From sequence record OZ035748.1: a stretch of DNA of 40,168 nucleotides, one strand, 5' to 3'. The stretch is from Przondovirus KP32i192. A model generated the notes under the pieces. It made no database searches. It was not told the origin of the DNA and saw only the letters and a program-made list of their open reading frames with translations. The first letter of the stretch is position 1. The number at the start of each line of letters is the position of its first letter. The translations under genes were made by a program, and so were the position numbers. Shown piece after piece: positions 3,441 through 10,918 of the stretch.

Positions 3441-3492
3441 CATCTGGTGAGTCATCACTATAGGGCTATTGGTGGTCATTGTCAATCAATCC

Positions 3493-3515
3493 TATTAGGA
3501 CACACTATAGGGAGA
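3493..3515 (+). promoter_or_regulatory. Phage RNAP promoter (phiOL-like, left end)
   Basis: TATTAGGACACACTATAGGGAGA; +1 G at 3510. Confidence 0.65.
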
Positions 3516-3594
3516 CACTTAAAGTATTACTTAGGGACCATCACCATAAAGATCACCATCACTATAGGTCTAACTAAAAGTTTAACTTTAAGTG

Positions 3595-4760: not shown

Positions 4761-5777
4761 ATGAACTACACCGACATGCAAGAACGCTTAGACGTCATCC
4801 GTAACCTGCCAATCTGTGAACTCGACAAGCGCCAGCCGCTGCTGGTAGCACTCATCGCGGACATTGTGAACTGCGAGACGTCCGATGGTGACGACACGGA
4901 TAGCGATTGGGGTCTGGAGCGACAGGACTACTGGCAAACCCTGAAGATTAAGGCCAAAGACGCTGGGTTTAACCTGCTGGGCAATGGACACTTCAGCGCA
5001 GCGTTTAAGCACGAGCTGCTACCGGGTAGGGTCATTAAGGTTGGCTTTAAGAAAGAGGATTCAGGGGCCGCATACGTGGCTTTCTGCCGGATGCACCAAG
5101 GCCGGGCAGGCATCCCTAACGTCTATCACGTAGCGCGTCACGCTGGGTGCTATACGGTGGTACTTGATGAGTTGGAACCATGCAAGCGCAGCAGTAACCA
5201 CTTGCACGACCACTACGCAGACCTCGCGTATTATTTTGTCGAGTGTGACTATGAGCCTGAGGAGCACCACGAGAAGGACTTACCGTTCATTGAGACGTGC
5301 CAGATGATTCGGGACTTCTTCTGTGGGATTGCATCCTTCGATATGCACAGCGGTAACATCATGTTCACCAAAGACGGCAAGCCAGTGATTACCGACCCGG
5401 TGTCATTCTCGGCGGACCGGGACCGTGAGCCTTTCTCACTGGAACCTGAGGAGCTACTTGCTGAGATTGAGCAGATAGCGCACGACAAGATGATTGAACG
5501 CTGCAAGCGCAACAAGGCTAAGCGTGACCCGAACGGAGCGCTGCGCATCGCACGGCGTAAGGCCAATAAGGAGCGTCGAGCACGCCGTAAGGCGCACGCT
5601 AGGTGGCGTAAGGAGCGTGAACGTGAACGTGAGCAGTATCACGTAGACGCCCTAAAGTTAGACCTAGCGAGTGTCGAGGAGCGCATTCTGGCGTGGCAAA
5701 TGGGTCCCGGCCTAGCGATACAAATGGGCAAGCCGTTGCCAATCGACAACTACCTTCAGGGTAGACTTATGGGTTAG
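4761..5777 (+). CDS. Serine/threonine protein kinase and host transcription shutoff protein (T7 gp0.7-like)
   Basis: 338-aa ORF; long identical blocks with recalled T7 gp0.7 (LPICELDKRQ, GNGHFSAA, RVIKVGFKKEDSGAAY, GIASFDMHSGNIMF). Confidence 0.85.
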   Translation: MNYTDMQERLDVIRNLPICELDKRQPLLVALIADIVNCETSDGDDTDSDWGLERQDYWQTLKIKAKDAGFNLLGNGHFSAAFKHELLPGRVIKVGFKKEDSGAAYVAFCRMHQGRAGIPNVYHVARHAGCYTVVLDELEPCKRSSNHLHDHYADLAYYFVECDYEPEEHHEKDLPFIETCQMIRDFFCGIASFDMHSGNIMFTKDGKPVITDPVSFSADRDREPFSLEPEELLAEIEQIAHDKMIERCKRNKAKRDPNGALRIARRKANKERRARRKAHARWRKEREREREQYHVDALKLDLASVEERILAWQMGPGLAIQMGKPLPIDNYLQGRLMG

Positions 5778-5791
5778 CAAGGTGTATCTTA

Positions 5792-5813
5792 GGTGTCTCC
5801 CGCAAGAGGCACC
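5792..5813 (+). promoter_or_regulatory. RNA hairpin in gene 1 leader (candidate R1 processing site)
   Basis: GGTGTCTC ccgcaa GAGGCACC: 8-bp stem (one G-U), 6-nt loop, no following U-tract so not an intrinsic terminator. Confidence 0.3.
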
Positions 5814-5846
5814 GATAGATAAACTTTATTCACAAAGAGGCACACA

Positions 5847-8567
5847 ATGAACGCATTAAACATTGCACGTAATGACTTCTCAGAGATTGAACTGGCCGCT
5901 ATTCCGTACAACATCCTCAGCGAGCACTACGGGGACAAGCTGGCACGTGAGCAGTTAGCACTGGAGCATGAGGCGTACGAGCTGGGTGAGCAGCGTTTCC
6001 TGAAGATGTTAGAACGTCAGGTGAAAGCTGGAGAGTTCGCTGACAACGTGGCCGCTAAGCCGCTGGTCCTAACGTTGCACCCGCAGCTGACCAAGCGCAT
6101 TGACGATTGGAAGGAGGAACAAGCAAACGCTCGTGGTAAGAAGCCTCGCGCATACTACCCGATTAAGCACGGCGTGTCCTCAGAGCTGGCCCTCAGTATG
6201 GGCGCTGAGGTACTCAATGAGAAGCGCGGAGTGTCCAGTGAGGCAATCGCACTGCTGACCATTAAGGTCGTCTTAGGGACGCTCACAGACGCCTCCAAGG
6301 CAACCATCCAGCAGGTATCCTCTCAGTTAGGCAAGGCTCTTGAGGATGAGGCCCGCTTTGGTCGTATCCGTGAGCAGGAAGCCGCCTACTTCAAGAAGAA
6401 CGTAGCGGACCAGCTGGACAAGCGTGTAGGCCACGTGTACAAGAAGGCTTTCATGCAGGTCGTCGAGGCCGATATGATTTCCAAAGGGATGCTGGGTGGG
6501 GACAACTGGTCCAGCTGGAAAACTGACGAGCAGATGCATGTGGGGACCAAGCTGCTTGAGCTACTCATCGAGGGCACTGGTCTGGTGGAAATGACCAAGA
6601 ACAAGATGGCCGATGGCTCCGACGATGTGACCAGTATGCAGATGGTCCAGCTGGCTCCGGCCTTTGTGGAACTCCTGAGCAAACGAGCGGGAGCACTCGC
6701 AGGTATCAGCCCGATGCACCAACCATGCGTAGTCCCTCCGAAACCTTGGGTGGAGACCGTAGGCGGTGGCTACTGGTCAGTCGGTCGCCGCCCGCTGGCG
6801 CTGGTTCGTACCCACTCCAAGAAGGCACTGCGCCGCTACGCAGACGTGCACATGCCCGAGGTATACAAAGCGGTAAACCTCGCGCAAAACACGCCGTGGA
6901 AGGTGAACAAGAAGGTGCTGGCGGTAGTCAACGAGATTGTCAACTGGAAGCACTGCCCGGTTGCTGACGTCCCGGCGATTGAACGCGAAGAGTTACCACC
7001 ACGCCCGGACGATATCGACACCAACGAGGTGTCACGCAAGGCATGGCGCAAGGAGGCCGCAGCGGTCTACCGTAAGGACAAGGCCCGCCAGTCTCGCCGT
7101 TTGTCAATGGAGTTCATGGTCGCACAGGCCAACAAGTTCGCTAACCACAAGGCCATCTGGTTCCCGTACAACATGGACTGGCGCGGACGTGTGTACGCTG
7201 TGAGCATGTTCAACCCGCAGGGTAACGACATGACCAAGGGTATGCTGACGCTGGCCAAGGGTAAGCCAATCGGTCTCGACGGGTTCTACTGGCTGAAGAT
7301 TCACGGTGCAAACTGTGCAGGCGTCGACAAGGTTCCATTCCCTGAGCGCATCAAGTTCATCGAAGAGAACGAGGGTAACATTCTGGCGAGCGCAGCAGAC
7401 CCGCTGAATAACATTTGGTGGACACAGCAAGATTCACCGTTCTGTTTCTTGGCGTTCTGCTTTGAGTACGCAGGCGTTAAACATCATGGCCTGAATTACA
7501 ACTGCTCGCTGCCGCTGGCATTCGATGGGTCATGCTCTGGGATTCAGCACTTCAGCGCGATGCTCCGCGATTCCATCGGTGGTCGTGCGGTTAACCTGCT
7601 GCCTTCTGATACTGTGCAGGATATCTACAAGATTGTGGCCGACAAGGTTAACGAGGTGCTTCACCAGCACGCTGTCAACGGGTCTCAGACGGTGGTCGAG
7701 CAGATTGCTGATAAAGAGACTGGCGAGTTCCGCGAGAAAGTAACACTGGGTGAGTCCGTGCTGGCTGCTCAGTGGTTGCAATATGGCGTGACCCGTAAGG
7801 TGACTAAGCGTTCGGTCATGACGTTGGCGTACGGTTCCAAAGAGTTCGGCTTCCGCCAGCAAGTTCTGGAAGACACCATTCAGCCTGCTATTGACAATGG
7901 CGAGGGCTTGATGTTTACGCACCCTAACCAAGCGGCTGGCTACATGGCTAAGCTGATTTGGGACGCTGTGACCGTGACCGTAGTGGCCGCTGTCGAGGCA
8001 ATGAACTGGCTGAAGTCTGCCGCTAAGCTGCTGGCTGCTGAAGTCAAGGACAAGAAGACCAAAGAGGTGCTGCGTAAGCGCTGCGCAATCCACTGGGTAA
8101 CACCCGATGGCTTCCCGGTGTGGCAGGAGTACCGCAAGCAGAACCAAGCGCGCCTGAAGCTGGTCTTCCTCGGGCAGGCCAACGTCAAGATGACGTATAA
8201 CACTGGGAAGGACTCAGAGATTGATGCCCACAAGCAGGAATCCGGCATAGCTCCTAACTTTGTTCACTCACAGGACGGTAGTCACCTACGCATGACCGTA
8301 GTACACGCCAACGAGGTCTACGGGATTGACTCCTTCGCACTCATTCACGACTCCTTCGGGACCATTCCGGCTGACGCTGGGAATCTCTTTAAGGCAGTCC
8401 GTGAGACGATGGTCAAGACCTACGAGGACAACGATGTGATCGCTGACTTCTACGACCAGTTCGCTGACCAGCTGCACGAGTCTCAACTGGACAAGATGCC
8501 AGCTGTTCCGGCCAAAGGTGACCTGAATCTGCGAGACATCTTGAAGTCAGACTTCGCGTTTGCGTAA
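5847..8567 (+). CDS. Single-subunit DNA-dependent RNA polymerase (T7 gp1-like)
   Basis: 906-aa ORF; collinear with recalled T7 RNAP along the full length, including the active-site region (LPLAFDGSCSGIQHFSAMLRD) and C-terminal FAFA. Confidence 0.95.
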   Translation: MNALNIARNDFSEIELAAIPYNILSEHYGDKLAREQLALEHEAYELGEQRFLKMLERQVKAGEFADNVAAKPLVLTLHPQLTKRIDDWKEEQANARGKKPRAYYPIKHGVSSELALSMGAEVLNEKRGVSSEAIALLTIKVVLGTLTDASKATIQQVSSQLGKALEDEARFGRIREQEAAYFKKNVADQLDKRVGHVYKKAFMQVVEADMISKGMLGGDNWSSWKTDEQMHVGTKLLELLIEGTGLVEMTKNKMADGSDDVTSMQMVQLAPAFVELLSKRAGALAGISPMHQPCVVPPKPWVETVGGGYWSVGRRPLALVRTHSKKALRRYADVHMPEVYKAVNLAQNTPWKVNKKVLAVVNEIVNWKHCPVADVPAIEREELPPRPDDIDTNEVSRKAWRKEAAAVYRKDKARQSRRLSMEFMVAQANKFANHKAIWFPYNMDWRGRVYAVSMFNPQGNDMTKGMLTLAKGKPIGLDGFYWLKIHGANCAGVDKVPFPERIKFIEENEGNILASAADPLNNIWWTQQDSPFCFLAFCFEYAGVKHHGLNYNCSLPLAFDGSCSGIQHFSAMLRDSIGGRAVNLLPSDTVQDIYKIVADKVNEVLHQHAVNGSQTVVEQIADKETGEFREKVTLGESVLAAQWLQYGVTRKVTKRSVMTLAYGSKEFGFRQQVLEDTIQPAIDNGEGLMFTHPNQAAGYMAKLIWDAVTVTVVAAVEAMNWLKSAAKLLAAEVKDKKTKEVLRKRCAIHWVTPDGFPVWQEYRKQNQARLKLVFLGQANVKMTYNTGKDSEIDAHKQESGIAPNFVHSQDGSHLRMTVVHANEVYGIDSFALIHDSFGTIPADAGNLFKAVRETMVKTYEDNDVIADFYDQFADQLHESQLDKMPAVPAKGDLNLRDILKSDFAFA

Positions 8568-8577
8568 GGTCTCGGGC

Positions 8578-8600
8578 AATTAGGGCACACTATAGGGAAC
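8578..8600 (+). promoter_or_regulatory. Phage RNAP promoter (phi1.1A-like)
   Basis: AATTAGGGCACACTATAGGGAAC; transcript starts with a 10-bp hairpin GGGAACCTTCG/CGAGGGTTCC. Confidence 0.7.
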
Positions 8601-8660
8601 CTTCGAATGACCGAGGGTTCCATTACTTAAAGTCTTAACTTAAAGAATACTTAAAGAGGC
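8595..8660 (+). other. Candidate primary replication origin region (promoter plus AT-rich tacttaaag repeats)
   Basis: 5' hairpin followed by three copies of (t/a)acttaaag at 8624, 8637, 8648; in T7 the primary origin is the promoter/AT-rich region just downstream of gene 1. Confidence 0.3.
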
Positions 8661-8665
8661 ACACC

Positions 8666-9226
8666 ATGACTTACTCAATCGTTGTAACCATCTTGTTAAT
8701 CGTATTAATCATCCTGTTAGTAAGGGCCGTCACACGACTCGGTGCCTGCGAGTACGCCCTTGAGAAGCAAGCCAAGAGCAACGAGGAGTACACAGACGGC
8801 TTGCACGATAAGGTCTGCCGCCTGTCTGACGATAAGGTATCACTCAATAAGCAGGTGCGGTGGTTAGAGAGCGAGCTTGAACACGAGAAGCAGAAGGTAC
8901 GCGATGTGAACGAACTACGGGAACGCCAGCGGGACCGCATGAAGTTCCTCCGCAAGTCCCTCAAGGAAGCACAAGATGAGCTGATGATGGTCTCCGACCT
9001 GATTCACGTTAAGTTCACCGCTGTGTTGCCGGACGGTACCCACTCCAAGACGCTCTTTAAGTTAGGACTTGGGCCGTGTGGCCTGCACGTTAAGTCCCTC
9101 CGCTGGACCGAGCTGGATGACCGCTATCTGATAGACCAGCTGTGCACCAACGGTGAGCGCAAGCAGTTCGTTTATTACAAGAGCGAAGTAGTGGGACGCA
9201 TCGAGTTCCGCCACGGTAAGATTTAA
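8666..9226 (+). CDS. Hypothetical protein, N-terminal TM helix plus coiled coil (no T7 counterpart; gene 1.05 position)
   Basis: 186-aa ORF with aagagg RBS; hydrophobic N-terminus IVVTILLIVLIILLV followed by charged heptad-rich region; no similarity to T7 proteins I can recall. Confidence 0.6.
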   Translation: MTYSIVVTILLIVLIILLVRAVTRLGACEYALEKQAKSNEEYTDGLHDKVCRLSDDKVSLNKQVRWLESELEHEKQKVRDVNELRERQRDRMKFLRKSLKEAQDELMMVSDLIHVKFTAVLPDGTHSKTLFKLGLGPCGLHVKSLRWTELDDRYLIDQLCTNGERKQFVYYKSEVVGRIEFRHGKI

Positions 9227-9247
9227 TTAGGACCCACTATCAGGAAC
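9225..9247 (+). promoter_or_regulatory. Degenerate phage promoter-like element (phi1.1B position)
   Basis: AATTAGGACCCACTATCAGGAAC: upstream -17 to -2 matches consensus but -1/+1 is C/A instead of A/G. Confidence 0.35.
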
Positions 9248-9248
9248 A

Positions 9249-9285
9249 TACTCAAGGTCATCACGTTTGGTGGCCTTCATGAATG
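9249..9285 (+). promoter_or_regulatory. RNase III-type processing hairpin (R1.1-like)
   Basis: tactcAAGGTCATCACgtttGGTGGCCTTcatgaatg; shares ctcaaggtca / tggcctt motifs with sites at 288, 9773, 16538. Confidence 0.55.
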
Positions 9286-9315
9286 TCCCTTAATATCACA
9301 ATCAGGAGCAACACC

Positions 9316-9492
9316 ATGTATCAGAACACAATCAACTTTGAGCGCACCCGTGAACGTCAGCAGACAGAGGGTTACATCCCTAAGGGCCGCAAGCTGAACA
9401 AGACGAAGCGCGGTGGTGGGGTGAAGGGTTCCTTCCGTAACGCTAAGGGTGACAGCGTTGTTAACCAAGAGAAATACTTCGTGGGAGCGTAA
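9316..9492 (+). CDS. gp1.1-like small basic protein
   Basis: 58-aa product contains KGRKLNKTKR as in recalled T7 gp1.1; aggag RBS 7 nt upstream. Confidence 0.55.
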   Translation: MYQNTINFERTRERQQTEGYIPKGRKLNKTKRGGGVKGSFRNAKGDSVVNQEKYFVGA

Positions 9493-9495
9493 CAA

Positions 9496-9753
9496 ATGGC
9501 TACGGAAAAAAGATGGCTTTTCGATGGGAGCACCTCACAATGGTCTCGTTTAGGAGCAGCGGAGCGTAGACTACTGGATACGACAGGACTGCACGTGGTC
9601 ATGCTTGACGACCCATTCACTAACACCGTGCTGTTCAACGTATTCGAGCCACGCGGGTCACTTCTAATAAGTAAGCGGTTCAGCCACTGGTCGATTGACT
9701 CAGCGTCAGACTGGCTGGCAAAACTCGCAGCTGACTACTCAAGCTGGCAGTAA
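9496..9753 (+). CDS. gp1.2-like protein (possible host dGTPase inhibitor) by size and position
   Basis: 85-aa ORF, same length and position as T7 gp1.2; sequence similarity weak. Confidence 0.45.
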   Translation: MATEKRWLFDGSTSQWSRLGAAERRLLDTTGLHVVMLDDPFTNTVLFNVFEPRGSLLISKRFSHWSIDSASDWLAKLAADYSSWQ

Positions 9754-9774
9754 TTAGGACACACTATAGGCAGA
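9752..9774 (+). promoter_or_regulatory. Phage RNAP promoter (phi1.3-like)
   Basis: AATTAGGACACACTATAGGCAGA; +1 G at 9769. Confidence 0.65.
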
Positions 9775-9809
9775 CTCAAGGTCATCGGATTCCGGTGGCC
9801 TTTATGATT
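9773..9809 (+). promoter_or_regulatory. RNase III-type processing hairpin (R1.3-like)
   Basis: gactcAAGGTCATCGGattCCGGTGGCCTTtatgatt: 11-bp stem with two G-U pairs. Confidence 0.55.
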
Positions 9810-9853
9810 GCTTATTGCACACTAAATGAACACTACACTTCGGAGACATCGTC

Positions 9854-10918
9854 ATGATGAACATTAAGACTAATCCATTTAAGGCTGTATCATTCGTTCG
9901 CTCTGCTATCGAGAAGGCGCTGGAGACTTCCGGTTACCTCATCGCAGACACTAAGCACGATGGTGTGCGCGGTAACATCTGCGTAGACAACACGGCCAAC
10001 GCAGCGTGGCTCAGCCGGGTCTCCAAGACCATTCCGGCCCTTGAGCATCTCAACGGTTTCGACCAGCGCTGGAATAAGTTACTGAAAGATGACCGCTGGA
10101 TTTTCCCGGATGGCTTCATGCTTGATGGCGAACTCATGGTCAAAGGCGTGGACTTCAACACCGGGTCTGGTCTACTGCGCACCAAGTACCTGAAAGAAAA
10201 GAACATGAAGTTTGACACCCGCGCCCTTCTTGACTTCGATAAGAAGCTGTGGGGGACCAAAACTCCATTCCGCCTACAGACGGGCAAACTCAAAGTTGTC
10301 CTCTATGATATCATTCCGCTTGACATTATCGAGTCCGGTGATGACTACAACGTGATGACCCTCCTCCGCCTTGAGCACGTCAAGGTAGCCTTACCAGTCC
10401 TGCAAGACCACTTCCCTGAAGTCGAGTGGTGCCTCTCGGAGTCCCATGAAGTTTACGACATGGACGAACTCGATGCGCTTTACCGACAGAAACGCGAAGA
10501 AGGTCACGAAGGTCTGGTGGTTAAGGACCCTCAGGGCATCTACAAGCGCGGTAAGAAGTCCGGCTGGTGGAAACTGAAGCCAGAGAACGAGGCTGACGGT
10601 GTCGTTGTGGGACTCAACTGGGGAACTCCCGGTCTTGCCAACGAGGGCAAGGTGATTGGCTTCGAGGTACTCCTTGAGTCTGGTCGCGTGGTATCCGCCA
10701 ACAACATCTCTCAGGCACTTATGGAGGAGTTTACCTCCGCATGGCTCAACGCTAACACCGAGGACTTCACAGGAACAACAGCGCCAAACCCAGTGAACCC
10801 TTACGAAGGCTGGGCGTGCCAAATCAAGTACATGGAGGAAACTCCAGATGGCTCTCTGCGTCACCCGTCGTTCGACAAATGGCGTGGCACTGAGGCTGAC
10901 CCGACCATAAAGATGTAA
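9854..10918 (+). CDS. ATP-dependent DNA ligase (T7 gp1.3-like)
   Basis: 354-aa ORF; N-terminus MMNIKTNPFKAVSFV and adenylation motif KYDGVRG match recalled T7 ligase. Confidence 0.92.
   Translation: MMNIKTNPFKAVSFVRSAIEKALETSGYLIADTKHDGVRGNICVDNTANAAWLSRVSKTIPALEHLNGFDQRWNKLLKDDRWIFPDGFMLDGELMVKGVDFNTGSGLLRTKYLKEKNMKFDTRALLDFDKKLWGTKTPFRLQTGKLKVVLYDIIPLDIIESGDDYNVMTLLRLEHVKVALPVLQDHFPEVEWCLSESHEVYDMDELDALYRQKREEGHEGLVVKDPQGIYKRGKKSGWWKLKPENEADGVVVGLNWGTPGLANEGKVIGFEVLLESGRVVSANNISQALMEEFTSAWLNANTEDFTGTTAPNPVNPYEGWACQIKYMEETPDGSLRHPSFDKWRGTEADPTIKM

What the first reader, a model, noticed from the sequence alone, without database searches (positions are those of the whole stretch)
9225..9247. 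Degenerate promoter copy with altered -1/+1 (CACTATC AGG)
The upstream recognition region is intact, but the initiation region has C at -1 and A at +1 instead of A and G. It overlaps the stop codon of the inserted 186-aa gene and sits just before an RNase III-type hairpin. It may be a weakened or decayed promoter (T7-type RNAPs strongly prefer +1 G), possibly a scar of the insertion.
Basis: partly seen in the sequence, partly recalled or inferred. Interest (0 to 1): 0.35.

Follow-up and report, generated by a model that had tools for sequence, protein, structure and literature searches.

The report
Phage promoter phi1.1 with A start
This is the already annotated phi1.1 promoter of K11-like Klebsiella phages, a conserved copy of the phage RNA polymerase promoter that carries one extra C and so probably starts its RNA with A rather than G; it is not a decaying scar.

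Summary
Window 9225-9247 (AATTAGGACCCACTATCAGGAAC) is one of 13 same-strand copies of the K11-type phage promoter. Its -17..-2 part is identical to two other copies, and it alone has C at -1 and A at +1. The interpretation as a decayed promoter or insertion scar is not supported.

- The identical 23-mer is annotated as "promoter phi1.1" in the phage K11 GenBank record.
- The upstream 186-aa gene is gene 1.05, shared with T3 and most relatives.
- The downstream hairpin is the homologue of the T7/T3 RNase III site R1.1.
- Every K11-type relative examined keeps the C (29/29 aligned loci; exact 28-mer in 106 phage records).
- The sister clade, which has a different polymerase specificity loop, has the canonical CACTATA|GG (203 records). 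No hybrids were found.
- The C is present with or without gene 1.05.
- The 23-mer varies only at -17, -10 and -8, which also vary among the other copies, while neighbouring third codon positions vary freely.
- Natural precedents exist: T3 phi1.3/phi1.5 (CACTAAC|AGG) and T7 phi2.5 (CACTATT|AGG).

Most likely it is a functional, probably weaker, class II-type promoter initiating with ATP at 9242. No transcription data exist, so its strength is untested. The interest is low.

The parts
9225..9247 (+). Promoter phi1.1 for the phage single-subunit RNA polymerase, positions -17 to +6 (AATTAGGACCCACTATC|AGGAAC).
   Evidence: It is one of 13 promoter copies. The identical 23-mer is annotated 'promoter phi1.1' in K11 EU734173 at 6428-6450. 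It is conserved in 29/29 K11-type loci and the core 28-mer is exact in 106 phage records.
9241..9242 (+). C at -1 and A at +1. Relative to the sister clade and to Kayfunavirus this is a 1-nt C insertion between CACTAT and AGG. The predicted transcription start is A 9242.
   Evidence: Alignments show K11-type CACTAT-C-AGGAACATA against sister-clade CACTAT-AGGAACATA. The start nucleotide is inferred from the annotated T7 phi2.5 and T3 phi1.3/1.5 promoters; it has not been measured.
8666..9226 (+). Gene 1.05 (186 aa, called 'gp1.05 fusion protein' in K11). Its TAA stop (9224-9226) overlaps -17/-16 of the promoter.
   Evidence: ORF list. Residues 112-182 match Pfam PF25755 Phage_T3_1_05 with E 1.4e-26. 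K11 and KP32 annotations agree.
9242..9290 (+). R1.1-type RNase III hairpin. The lower stem is 9242-9244 + 9246-9249 paired with 9283-9286 + 9288-9290. The upper stem is 9254-9263 paired with 9268-9277, and the loop is 9264-9267. The +1 A is the closing base pair of the lower stem.
   Evidence: The fold has MFE -17 kcal/mol and z -2.9. The sequence is homologous to T7 R1.1 (after phi1.1A) and to the annotated T3 R1.1. In the alignment 96% of cells are paired against 28-48% in slid controls, and 6 pairs show compensatory change.
9316..9492 (+). Gene 1.1 (58 aa), the first gene downstream of phi1.1/R1.1. A Shine-Dalgarno sequence AGGAG lies at 9304-9308.
   Evidence: Pfam PF08200 Phage_1_1, E 2e-10. 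K11 annotates it as gp1.1.
9496..9753 (+). Gene 1.2 (85 aa; dGTPase inhibitor family).
   Evidence: phrog_6515 'dGTPase inhibitor', E 3.8e-47. K11 annotates it as gp1.2.
8578..8600 (+). Promoter phi1.05 (AATTAGGGCACACTATA|GGGAAC), the canonical upstream partner. Together with phi1.1 it brackets the gene 1.05 cassette as a direct repeat.
   Evidence: K11 annotates it as phi1.05. The same sequence was used as the KpnP promoter, with +1 G mapped.
9752..9812 (+). Promoter phi1.3 (9752-9774, canonical A|GG) followed by the R1.3 hairpin. This is a paralogous promoter-plus-RNase III module.
   Evidence: K11 annotates it as phi1.3. It aligns with T7 and T3 R1.3.

Best explanation
The site is promoter phi1.1 of a K11-type Przondovirus. 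It is the positional and sequence orthologue of T3 phi1.1 and T7 phi1.1A, and it lies directly in front of the RNase III processing hairpin R1.1 and genes 1.1/1.2.

Proposed mechanism:
- The phage RNA polymerase binds the intact -17..-5 recognition element.
- It melts TATC/A and starts at the fixed distance from that element, which here is an A (9242). The transcript therefore begins pppAGGAACAU..., and this 5' end is at the same time the 5' arm of the R1.1 lower stem.
- Relative to the sister clade and to outgroups, the K11-type clade carries a fixed 1-nt C insertion. This moves the conserved A from -1 to +1.
- The promoter is probably of the weaker, class II kind, but it is maintained by selection.

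Shown here: identity with the annotated K11 phi1.1, orthology, conservation, the clade-specific insertion, and the hairpin structure. Inferred, not shown: that the polymerase initiates here, that it initiates with ATP, and how strongly.
For: 1. It is a family member: 13 copies against 0.01 expected, and -17..-2 is identical to the copies at 10917 and 20662.
2. The identical 23-mer is annotated 'promoter phi1.1' in K11. KP32 has AATTAGGGCACACTATC|AGGAAC at the same place.
3. The layout gene 1 - phi1.05 - 1.05 - phi1.1 - R1.1 - 1.1 - 1.2 - phi1.3 - R1.3 - ligase is the same as in the annotated T3 record. T7 phi1.1A is followed by the homologous R1.1.
4. In an alignment anchored downstream of the promoter, 29/29 K11-type loci have CACTATCAGGAAC and all sister-clade loci have CACTAT(C)-AGGAAC.
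5. In 50,697 phage records, 106 carry the C-form 28-mer, 203 carry the sister-clade canonical form, and none carries a hybrid in either direction.
6. Among 28 distinct K11-type sequences only -17, -10 and -8 vary, and these positions also vary among the window's other promoters. That is 3/23 polymorphic columns, against 75/117 flanking third codon positions (Fisher p = 6e-6).
7. The C is independent of gene 1.05: L017 and L056 lack 1.05 and keep the C, while sister-clade phages with 1.05 lack it.
8. There are precedents with the same -1 pyrimidine/+1 A/GG: T3 phi1.3 and phi1.5 CACTAAC|AGGAGA and T7 phi2.5 CACTATT|AGGGAA. T7 phi2.5 is used as an A-initiating promoter (PMC3683919).
9. The KP32 polymerase accepts non-G initiating dinucleotides better than the T7 polymerase (PMC13580328). 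In T7, a -1T or a +1A single variant keeps about 40% of wild-type output (Komura S2).
Against: There is no 5'-end mapping or in vitro transcription for this site in any phage. I found none in the searchable literature, and the K11 annotation may be purely sequence-based.

Fixation of the C in one clade could reflect descent alone. Conservation of +1..+8 is also explained by the R1.1 stem, and -17/-16 by the stop codon. Only about -15..-1 speaks specifically for polymerase binding. Sequence exchange with other promoter copies could help to keep the recognition half intact without selection on this copy.

C:G at -1 in the melted region and a non-G start are expected to lower activity. Genes 1.1/1.2 would in any case be transcribed by read-through from phi1.05 and earlier promoters, so the promoter may be dispensable.
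Confidence: 0.66

Rival explanations
1. It is an inactive or nearly inactive relic. On this view the C insertion killed initiation in the ancestor of the K11-type clade. The sequence then persists only because it overlaps the gene 1.05 stop codon and the R1.1 stem, and because of exchange with other promoter copies.
For: It is the only one of 13 copies with non-A at -1 and non-G at +1. The +1..+8 part is constrained by the R1.1 lower stem and -17/-16 by the TAA stop. Upstream promoters can supply read-through transcripts. PhagePromoter-based annotation of the 99.8% identical phage does not call this site.
Against: Positions -15..-2 are under neither of those constraints. They vary only at -10 and -8, and only between states seen in the other promoter copies, while adjacent third codon positions and the last sense codon of 1.05 vary freely. 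No relative has lost or degraded the site (29/29 loci, 106 records). Exchange with other copies would be expected to restore A|G at least sometimes, yet no hybrids were found. In L017 and L056 it is the only phage promoter between gene 1 and gene 1.1. The same -1C/+1A configuration is annotated as a promoter in T3.
Confidence: 0.15
2. It is a functional promoter, but initiation slips by one base to the G at 9243 and uses GTP. The transcript would then be pppGGAACAU..., the same as in the sister clade. On this view the C simply lengthens the spacing by one base, and there is no A start.
For: T7-type polymerases prefer GTP as the initiating nucleotide, and 5' heterogeneity is seen when +1 is not G (PMC3683919). 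The G at 9243 is the exact homologue of the sister clade's +1 G.
Against: T7 phi2.5 has the same architecture (CACTATT|AGG). It is annotated with +1 at the A and is used as an A-initiating promoter, with only about 6-11% 5' heterogeneity for AGG starts. The T3 record places +1 on the A of CACTAAC|AGG.
Confidence: 0.12
3. It is a polymerase-binding or recombination element with no role in mRNA synthesis. Examples would be a module boundary used for homologous exchange of gene cassettes, or a site that primes DNA replication as the T7 phi1.1A/B promoters do at the primary origin.
For: Homology between relatives breaks exactly at -17. The 1.05 cassette is present or absent between the two direct promoter repeats, and L011/L015 carry an extra insert that ends at -17. 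In T3 the primary origin is annotated just after phi1.05. That T7's primary origin lies at phi1.1A/B is recalled from my own knowledge and was not checked here.
Against: Recombination needs only sequence identity and would not explain retention of the specific -1C/+1A. Origin priming is itself transcription from the promoter, so it is an added role and not a true alternative. The AT-rich, origin-like sequence lies after phi1.05 and not after phi1.1.
Confidence: 0.05

Closest known systems
Promoter phi1.1 of Klebsiella phage K11 (GenBank EU734173, 6428-6450)
   Same: The 23-mer AATTAGGACCCACTATCAGGAAC is identical. It has the same position, overlapping the stop of gene 1.05, and the same downstream hairpin and gene 1.1.
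   Different: Nothing differs in the site itself. The window is another phage, 99.8% identical to Kp_Pokalde_002, whose record does not annotate the site. I could not establish whether the K11 annotation rests on experiment.
T3 promoters phi1.3 and phi1.5 (AJ318471)
   Same: They have the same initiation configuration, C at -1, A at +1 and GG at +2/+3 (CACTAAC|AGGAGA). They are class II-region promoters, and phi1.3 is also followed directly by an RNase III hairpin.
   Different: Their recognition sequence is that of T3 (AACCCT), and they sit at different genomic positions. The positional orthologue, T3 phi1.1, has C at -1 but G at +1.
T7 promoter phi2.5
   Same: It has a pyrimidine at -1 and A at +1 followed by GG (CACTATT|AGGGAA). 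It is the single A-start promoter among the promoters of its genome, and it can be read as a 1-nt pyrimidine insertion into CACTAT|AGG. It is documented as A-initiating.
   Different: It has T and not C at -1. It lies in front of gene 2.5 and not gene 1.1, and no RNase III hairpin follows it.
T7 phi1.1A + R1.1 and T3 phi1.1 + R1.1 (promoter followed by an RNase III site, between gene 1 and gene 1.1)
   Same: They are the positional orthologues. The hairpin core is homologous (ACTCAAGGTCAT...GTGGCCTTnATGA), and in each the 5' end of the promoter's transcript forms the base of the lower stem.
   Different: T7 and T3 start with G (A|GAGGGA and C|GGGAGA). T7 has a second promoter, phi1.1B, and no gene 1.05.

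Membership tests
Promoters of T7-group (Studiervirinae) single-subunit RNA polymerases, K11 specificity type | A recognition element at -17..-5 that matches the genome's own repeated promoter consensus. | tested here: met
   -17..-2 is identical to the copies at 10917 and 20662. There are 13 copies against 0.01 expected.
Promoters of T7-group (Studiervirinae) single-subunit RNA polymerases, K11 specificity type | Same orientation as the genes, at a gene boundary upstream of a transcription unit. | tested here: met
   The site is on the + strand between gene 1.05 and gene 1.1. It is syntenic with the annotated K11 and T3 phi1.1.
Promoters of T7-group (Studiervirinae) single-subunit RNA polymerases, K11 specificity type | A consensus initiation element, TATA at -4..-1 and G at +1. 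| tested here: not met
   The site has TATC and A at +1. This feature is not universal in the family: T7 phi2.5 and T3 phi1.3/phi1.5 also lack it.
Promoters of T7-group (Studiervirinae) single-subunit RNA polymerases, K11 specificity type | Conservation among relatives beyond the neutral expectation. | tested here: met
   3/23 columns are polymorphic against 75/117 third codon positions, p = 6e-6. 29/29 loci keep the site. Caveat: the rows were selected with a pattern covering -7..+6, so invariance of those positions rests.
Promoters of T7-group (Studiervirinae) single-subunit RNA polymerases, K11 specificity type | Specific initiation by the cognate polymerase. | not testable with these tools
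   No TSS or in vitro data were found.
A-initiating class II promoters (T7 phi2.5 type) | Pyrimidine at -1, A at +1 and G at +2/+3, with an otherwise consensus promoter. | tested here: met
   The site reads CACTATC|AGG, against T7 CACTATT|AGG and T3 CACTAAC|AGG.
A-initiating class II promoters (T7 phi2.5 type) | The transcript 5' end is pppA. | not testable with these tools
   This needs gamma-labelled NTP incorporation or 5'-end sequencing.
RNase III processing sites of T7-group early/class II mRNAs (R1.1 type), for the adjacent hairpin | An irregular hairpin (upper stem, internal loop, lower stem) homologous to T7/T3 R1.1. | tested here: met
   Fold z -2.9. In the alignment with T7 and T3 R1.1/R1.3, 96% of cells are paired and 6 pairs show compensatory change. 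T3 annotates the homologue as R1.1.
RNase III processing sites of T7-group early/class II mRNAs (R1.1 type), for the adjacent hairpin | Cleavage by host RNase III. | not testable with these tools
   There is no Rfam model for it (one search returned no hits). Experiment is needed.
   Only -17, -10 and -8 vary, and they toggle between states used by the other promoter copies. No relative lacks the site.
   The C is present without gene 1.05 (L017, L056) and absent with gene 1.05 in the sister clade.

The most novel reading that the evidence does not exclude
The fixed one-base C insertion could be an adaptive retuning specific to the K11-type polymerase clade. By moving the start from G to the A that closes the R1.1 stem, phi1.1 transcripts would begin with an ATP-derived, fully base-paired 5' end. 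This could make the promoter respond to ATP instead of GTP levels. It could allow capping with adenine-containing cofactors such as NAD, for which the T7 phi2.5 type is used in vitro. It could also change the stability or RNase III processing of the short leader. Any of these would give genes 1.1/1.2 a regulation that the sister clade lacks.
Probability: 0.1. Interest if true: 0.45.

Novelty: already known. Interest (0 to 1): 0.15.

Why it matters
The main value is for annotation. Promoter finders and manual searches that require G at +1 miss this site. Examples are the PhagePromoter-based annotation of Kp_Pokalde_002 and the promoter search in the KP32 polymerase paper, even though more than 100 sequenced Klebsiella phages carry the site.

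It also offers a natural A-start promoter for K11/KP32-type polymerases, which are being developed for RNA manufacture with non-G 5' ends.

The strict split is a tidy natural experiment on start-site selection. The C form occurs only with the K11-type specificity loop and the canonical form only with the sister loop, and the two forms differ by a single base. The split is not surprising in kind.

Tried and rejected
- An Rfam scan of 8500-10000 at E<=1 gave no family.
- A sigma-70 promoter and intrinsic terminator scan of 8500-9900 found nothing at or near the site. A host promoter or a terminator reading was therefore dropped.
- Literature searches found no transcription start mapping in K11-like phages.
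- Han/Kyung et al. 2002 on K11 genomic promoters and Coleman et al. 2004 on T7 phi2.5 are not held.
- The supplement of the KP32 paper, which holds the dinucleotide table, is not held.
- The stored part of the Komura et al. T7 variant table has no -1C or -1C/+1A variant, only -1T and +1A singles.
- One accession slip: GQ413938 is KP34 and unrelated. KP32 is GQ413937.
- The insertion-scar idea was tested against the presence or absence of gene 1.05 and rejected.
- Chance resemblance was rejected.

Full report
**What the window is.** The window is a T7-supergroup Klebsiella phage of the genus Przondovirus. The 1.5 kb around the finding is 99.8% identical to Klebsiella phage Kp_Pokalde_002 and 90-95% identical to several hundred other Klebsiella phages. 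The local gene order is: RNA polymerase gene 1 (5847-8567), a promoter, a 186-aa gene (8666-9226), the site in question, a hairpin, gene 1.1 (9316-9492), gene 1.2 (9496-9753), a promoter, a second hairpin, and DNA ligase (9854-10918).

**Checking the observation.** The sequence at 9225-9247 is AATTAGGACCCACTATCAGGAAC. A search for the K11-type consensus with up to three mismatches finds 13 sites, all on the + strand, against 0.01 expected from dinucleotide-preserving shuffles. The upstream part of this copy, -17 to -2, is identical to the copies at 10917 and 20662, so the C at -8 is a normal variant. It is the only one of the 13 with C at -1 and A at +1; all the others read A|GG. The register is supported by experiment on a related enzyme. 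For the polymerase of Klebsiella phage IME321, 5'-end deep sequencing placed +1 on the G after CACTATA in CAATTAGGGCACACTATAGGGAAC, which is the sequence of the window's promoter at 8578 (PMC12272871). The TAA stop of the 186-aa gene (9224-9226) overlaps -17/-16.

**What it is.** The GenBank record of phage K11 (EU734173) annotates the identical 23-mer at 6428-6450 as "promoter phi1.1". It lies between "gp1.05 fusion protein" and gp1.1, with phi1.05 upstream and phi1.3 downstream. KP32 has the same site with the GGGCAC recognition variant, AATTAGGGCACACTATC|AGGAAC. The 186-aa gene is not a private insertion. Its C-terminal domain matches Pfam PF25755, "phage T3 gene 1.05 protein" (E 1.4e-26). 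The annotated T3 genome also has the same order: gene 1, phi1.05, origin, gene 1.05, phi1.1, R1.1, 1.1, 1.2, phi1.3, R1.3, ligase.

**The hairpin.** In T7, phi1.1A is followed by ACTCAAGGTCAT...GTGGCCTTTATGATTG, which is recognisably the same element as the window's ACTCAAGGTCATC...GGTGGCCTTCATGAATG. RNA from 9242 onward folds into an irregular hairpin (-17 kcal/mol, z -2.9). I aligned 20 R1.1 and R1.3 sequences from Przondovirus, Kayfunavirus, Apdecimavirus, T3 and T7. In that alignment 96% of cells are paired, against 28-48% when partners are slid. Six pairs show changes on both sides, four of them in the lower stem. The lower stem is formed by +1..+8 of the phi1.1 transcript, and the A at 9242 pairs with U in 17 of 18 sequences. 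Cleavage itself cannot be tested here.

**The comparison with relatives.** A pattern scan of IMG/VR gave 56 loci. I aligned them using an anchor downstream of the promoter, so that the promoter itself did not influence selection. They fall into two clades.
- All 29 loci with K11-type recognition sequences (AATTAGG[G/A]C[A/C]CACTAT) read CACTAT-C-AGGAACATACTCAAGG.
- All loci of the sister clade (GATTAGGTAGCACTAT) read CACTAT-AGGAACATACTCAAGG, which is the canonical A|GG. Two of them have CACTAC.
- Five Kayfunavirus outgroups also have the canonical CACTATA|GG.

The window's state is therefore a derived one-base C insertion that moves the conserved A from -1 to +1.

The two clades also have different polymerase specificity loops (...NVKMTYNTGKDS against ...NVFMTYNKGEAK). 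The residue aligned with T7 Q758 is K in one clade and F in the other.

Counts in 50,697 deposited phage genomes agree. The C-form 28-mer is exact in 106 records and the sister-clade canonical form in 203. No record combines a K11-type -8 base with the canonical start, and none combines the sister-clade recognition sequence with the C.

**Is the C a scar of the gene 1.05 insertion?** It is not. L017 and L056 are K11-type. They lack the whole phi1.05-1.05 cassette, with the gene 1 stop lying 13 nt before -17, and they still have the C. L010 and L051 are sister-clade phages without 1.05 and lack the C. Sister-clade phages with 1.05 also lack it. L011 and L015 have about 325 extra bases between 1.05 and phi1.1 and keep it. 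The C therefore tracks the polymerase clade and not the neighbouring gene.

**Is the site decaying?** Among 28 distinct K11-type sequences the 23-mer is polymorphic only at -17 (one sequence), -10 (A/G) and -8 (C/A). These are the positions that also vary among the window's other promoter copies. By contrast, 73% and 54% of third codon positions in the flanking genes 1.05 and 1.1 are polymorphic, and the last sense codon of 1.05, just upstream of the promoter, is hypervariable. Three of 23 columns against 75 of 117 gives Fisher p = 6e-6.

Three caveats apply.
- The rows were picked with a pattern covering -7..+6. For those positions the independent evidence is.
- +1..+8 is also constrained by the R1.1 stem, and -17/-16 by the stop codon. 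Only about -15..-1 speaks specifically for polymerase binding (2 of 15 columns polymorphic; p about 1e-3 to 2e-6).
- Exchange with other promoter copies could help to maintain the recognition half. Such exchange should sometimes restore A|G, and that is never seen.

**Is a C(-1)/A(+1) promoter plausible?** Within the T3 region examined here (5500-8000), all four annotated promoters have C at -1. Two of them, phi1.3 and phi1.5, read CACTAAC|AGGAGA, which is the same -1C/+1A/GG as here. T7 phi2.5 reads CACTATT|AGGGAA with +1 annotated on the A. It is used as an A-initiating promoter, reported to give yields similar to class III promoters in vitro and 6-11% 5' heterogeneity for AGG starts (PMC3683919). 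In a T7 variant library, the -1T and +1A single variants kept about 40% of wild-type output. The polymerase of KP32, which carries this very site, outperformed the T7 polymerase on all initiating dinucleotides except UU, including A starts (PMC13580328). Within the K11-type loci the -1C/+1A form occurs only at phi1.1, 29 of 162 promoter matches. This parallels T7 phi2.5, which is documented as the A-initiating class II promoter of T7; that phi2.5 is the only A-start promoter in the whole T7 genome comes from my own knowledge and was not tested here.

**Best explanation.** The site is promoter phi1.1. It is a conserved, probably weaker, class II-type promoter that most likely starts with ATP at 9242. 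It produces a short leader that is itself the R1.1 hairpin in front of genes 1.1 and 1.2. Transcription from the site, the start nucleotide and the strength are inferred and not shown.

The rivals are:
- an inactive relic kept by overlapping constraints (about 0.15);
- a functional promoter that slips to the G at 9243 (about 0.12);
- a non-transcriptional role as a recombination boundary or origin element (about 0.05).

**Verdict.** The feature is real. It is already annotated in the type phage of the group, and it has close natural precedents. Interest is low. The modest points of value are three: common annotation approaches miss the site, it marks a strict one-base difference between two polymerase/promoter clades, and it is a natural A-start promoter for enzymes now used in RNA production.

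Noticed in passing
window 5847-8567 (RNA polymerase); loci L005-L058: Przondovirus-like loci split into two promoter/polymerase specificity clades. One has AATTAGG[G/A]C[A/C]CACTAT with the polymerase loop ...QANVKMTYNTGKDSE. The other has GATTAGGTAGCACTAT with ...QANVFMTYNKGEAKE. The residue aligned with T7 Q758, which contacts -8, is K in one and F in the other.
   Followed up: partly
window 8578-9247; L017, L056, L010, L051, L011, L015: The phi1.05-gene 1.05 cassette is bracketed by two direct promoter repeats. Four loci lack it: their gene 1 stop is followed by one promoter with the phi1.05 upstream context and the phi1.1 downstream context. Two loci carry about 325 extra bases that end exactly at -17 of phi1.1. 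Promoters appear to act as module boundaries for cassette gain and loss.
   Followed up: partly
window 8595-8657: Directly after phi1.05 there is a hairpin, GGGAACCTTCGAATGACCGAGGGTTCC, followed by three CTTAAAG repeats (8626, 8639, 8650) in an AT-rich stretch. T3 annotates its primary origin of DNA replication at the same relative place, so this is possibly the origin of this phage.
   Followed up: no
window 3456-3464 and 3560-3568: Two orphan CACTATAGG initiation halves, without a recognisable -17..-8 element, flank the full promoter at 3493.
   Followed up: no
L042 (- strand, about 8249) and L053 (+ strand, about 1892): Two sister-clade phages have AATTAGGTATCACTATA|AGGAGACACT at the homologue of the window's promoter 3493. 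This is an A at +1 with a normal A at -1, so A-start variants also arise at other promoters in the genus.
   Followed up: no
L001 2881-2906 (MT425185 6951-6976), which corresponds to window about 9780-9805: The record of the 99.8% identical phage Kp_Pokalde_002 labels the hairpin after phi1.3 as a 'terminator'. By homology with T7 and T3 R1.3 it is an RNase III-type site. The same record does not annotate phi1.1.
   Followed up: partly
L061 about 690-720 (Yersinia phage AP10, NC_028655): AP10 (Apdecimavirus) has the identical AGGAACATACTCAAGG... R1.1 leader, but it is preceded by ATAACGACTCACCAGT. This suggests a different promoter type joined to the same downstream module.
   Followed up: no
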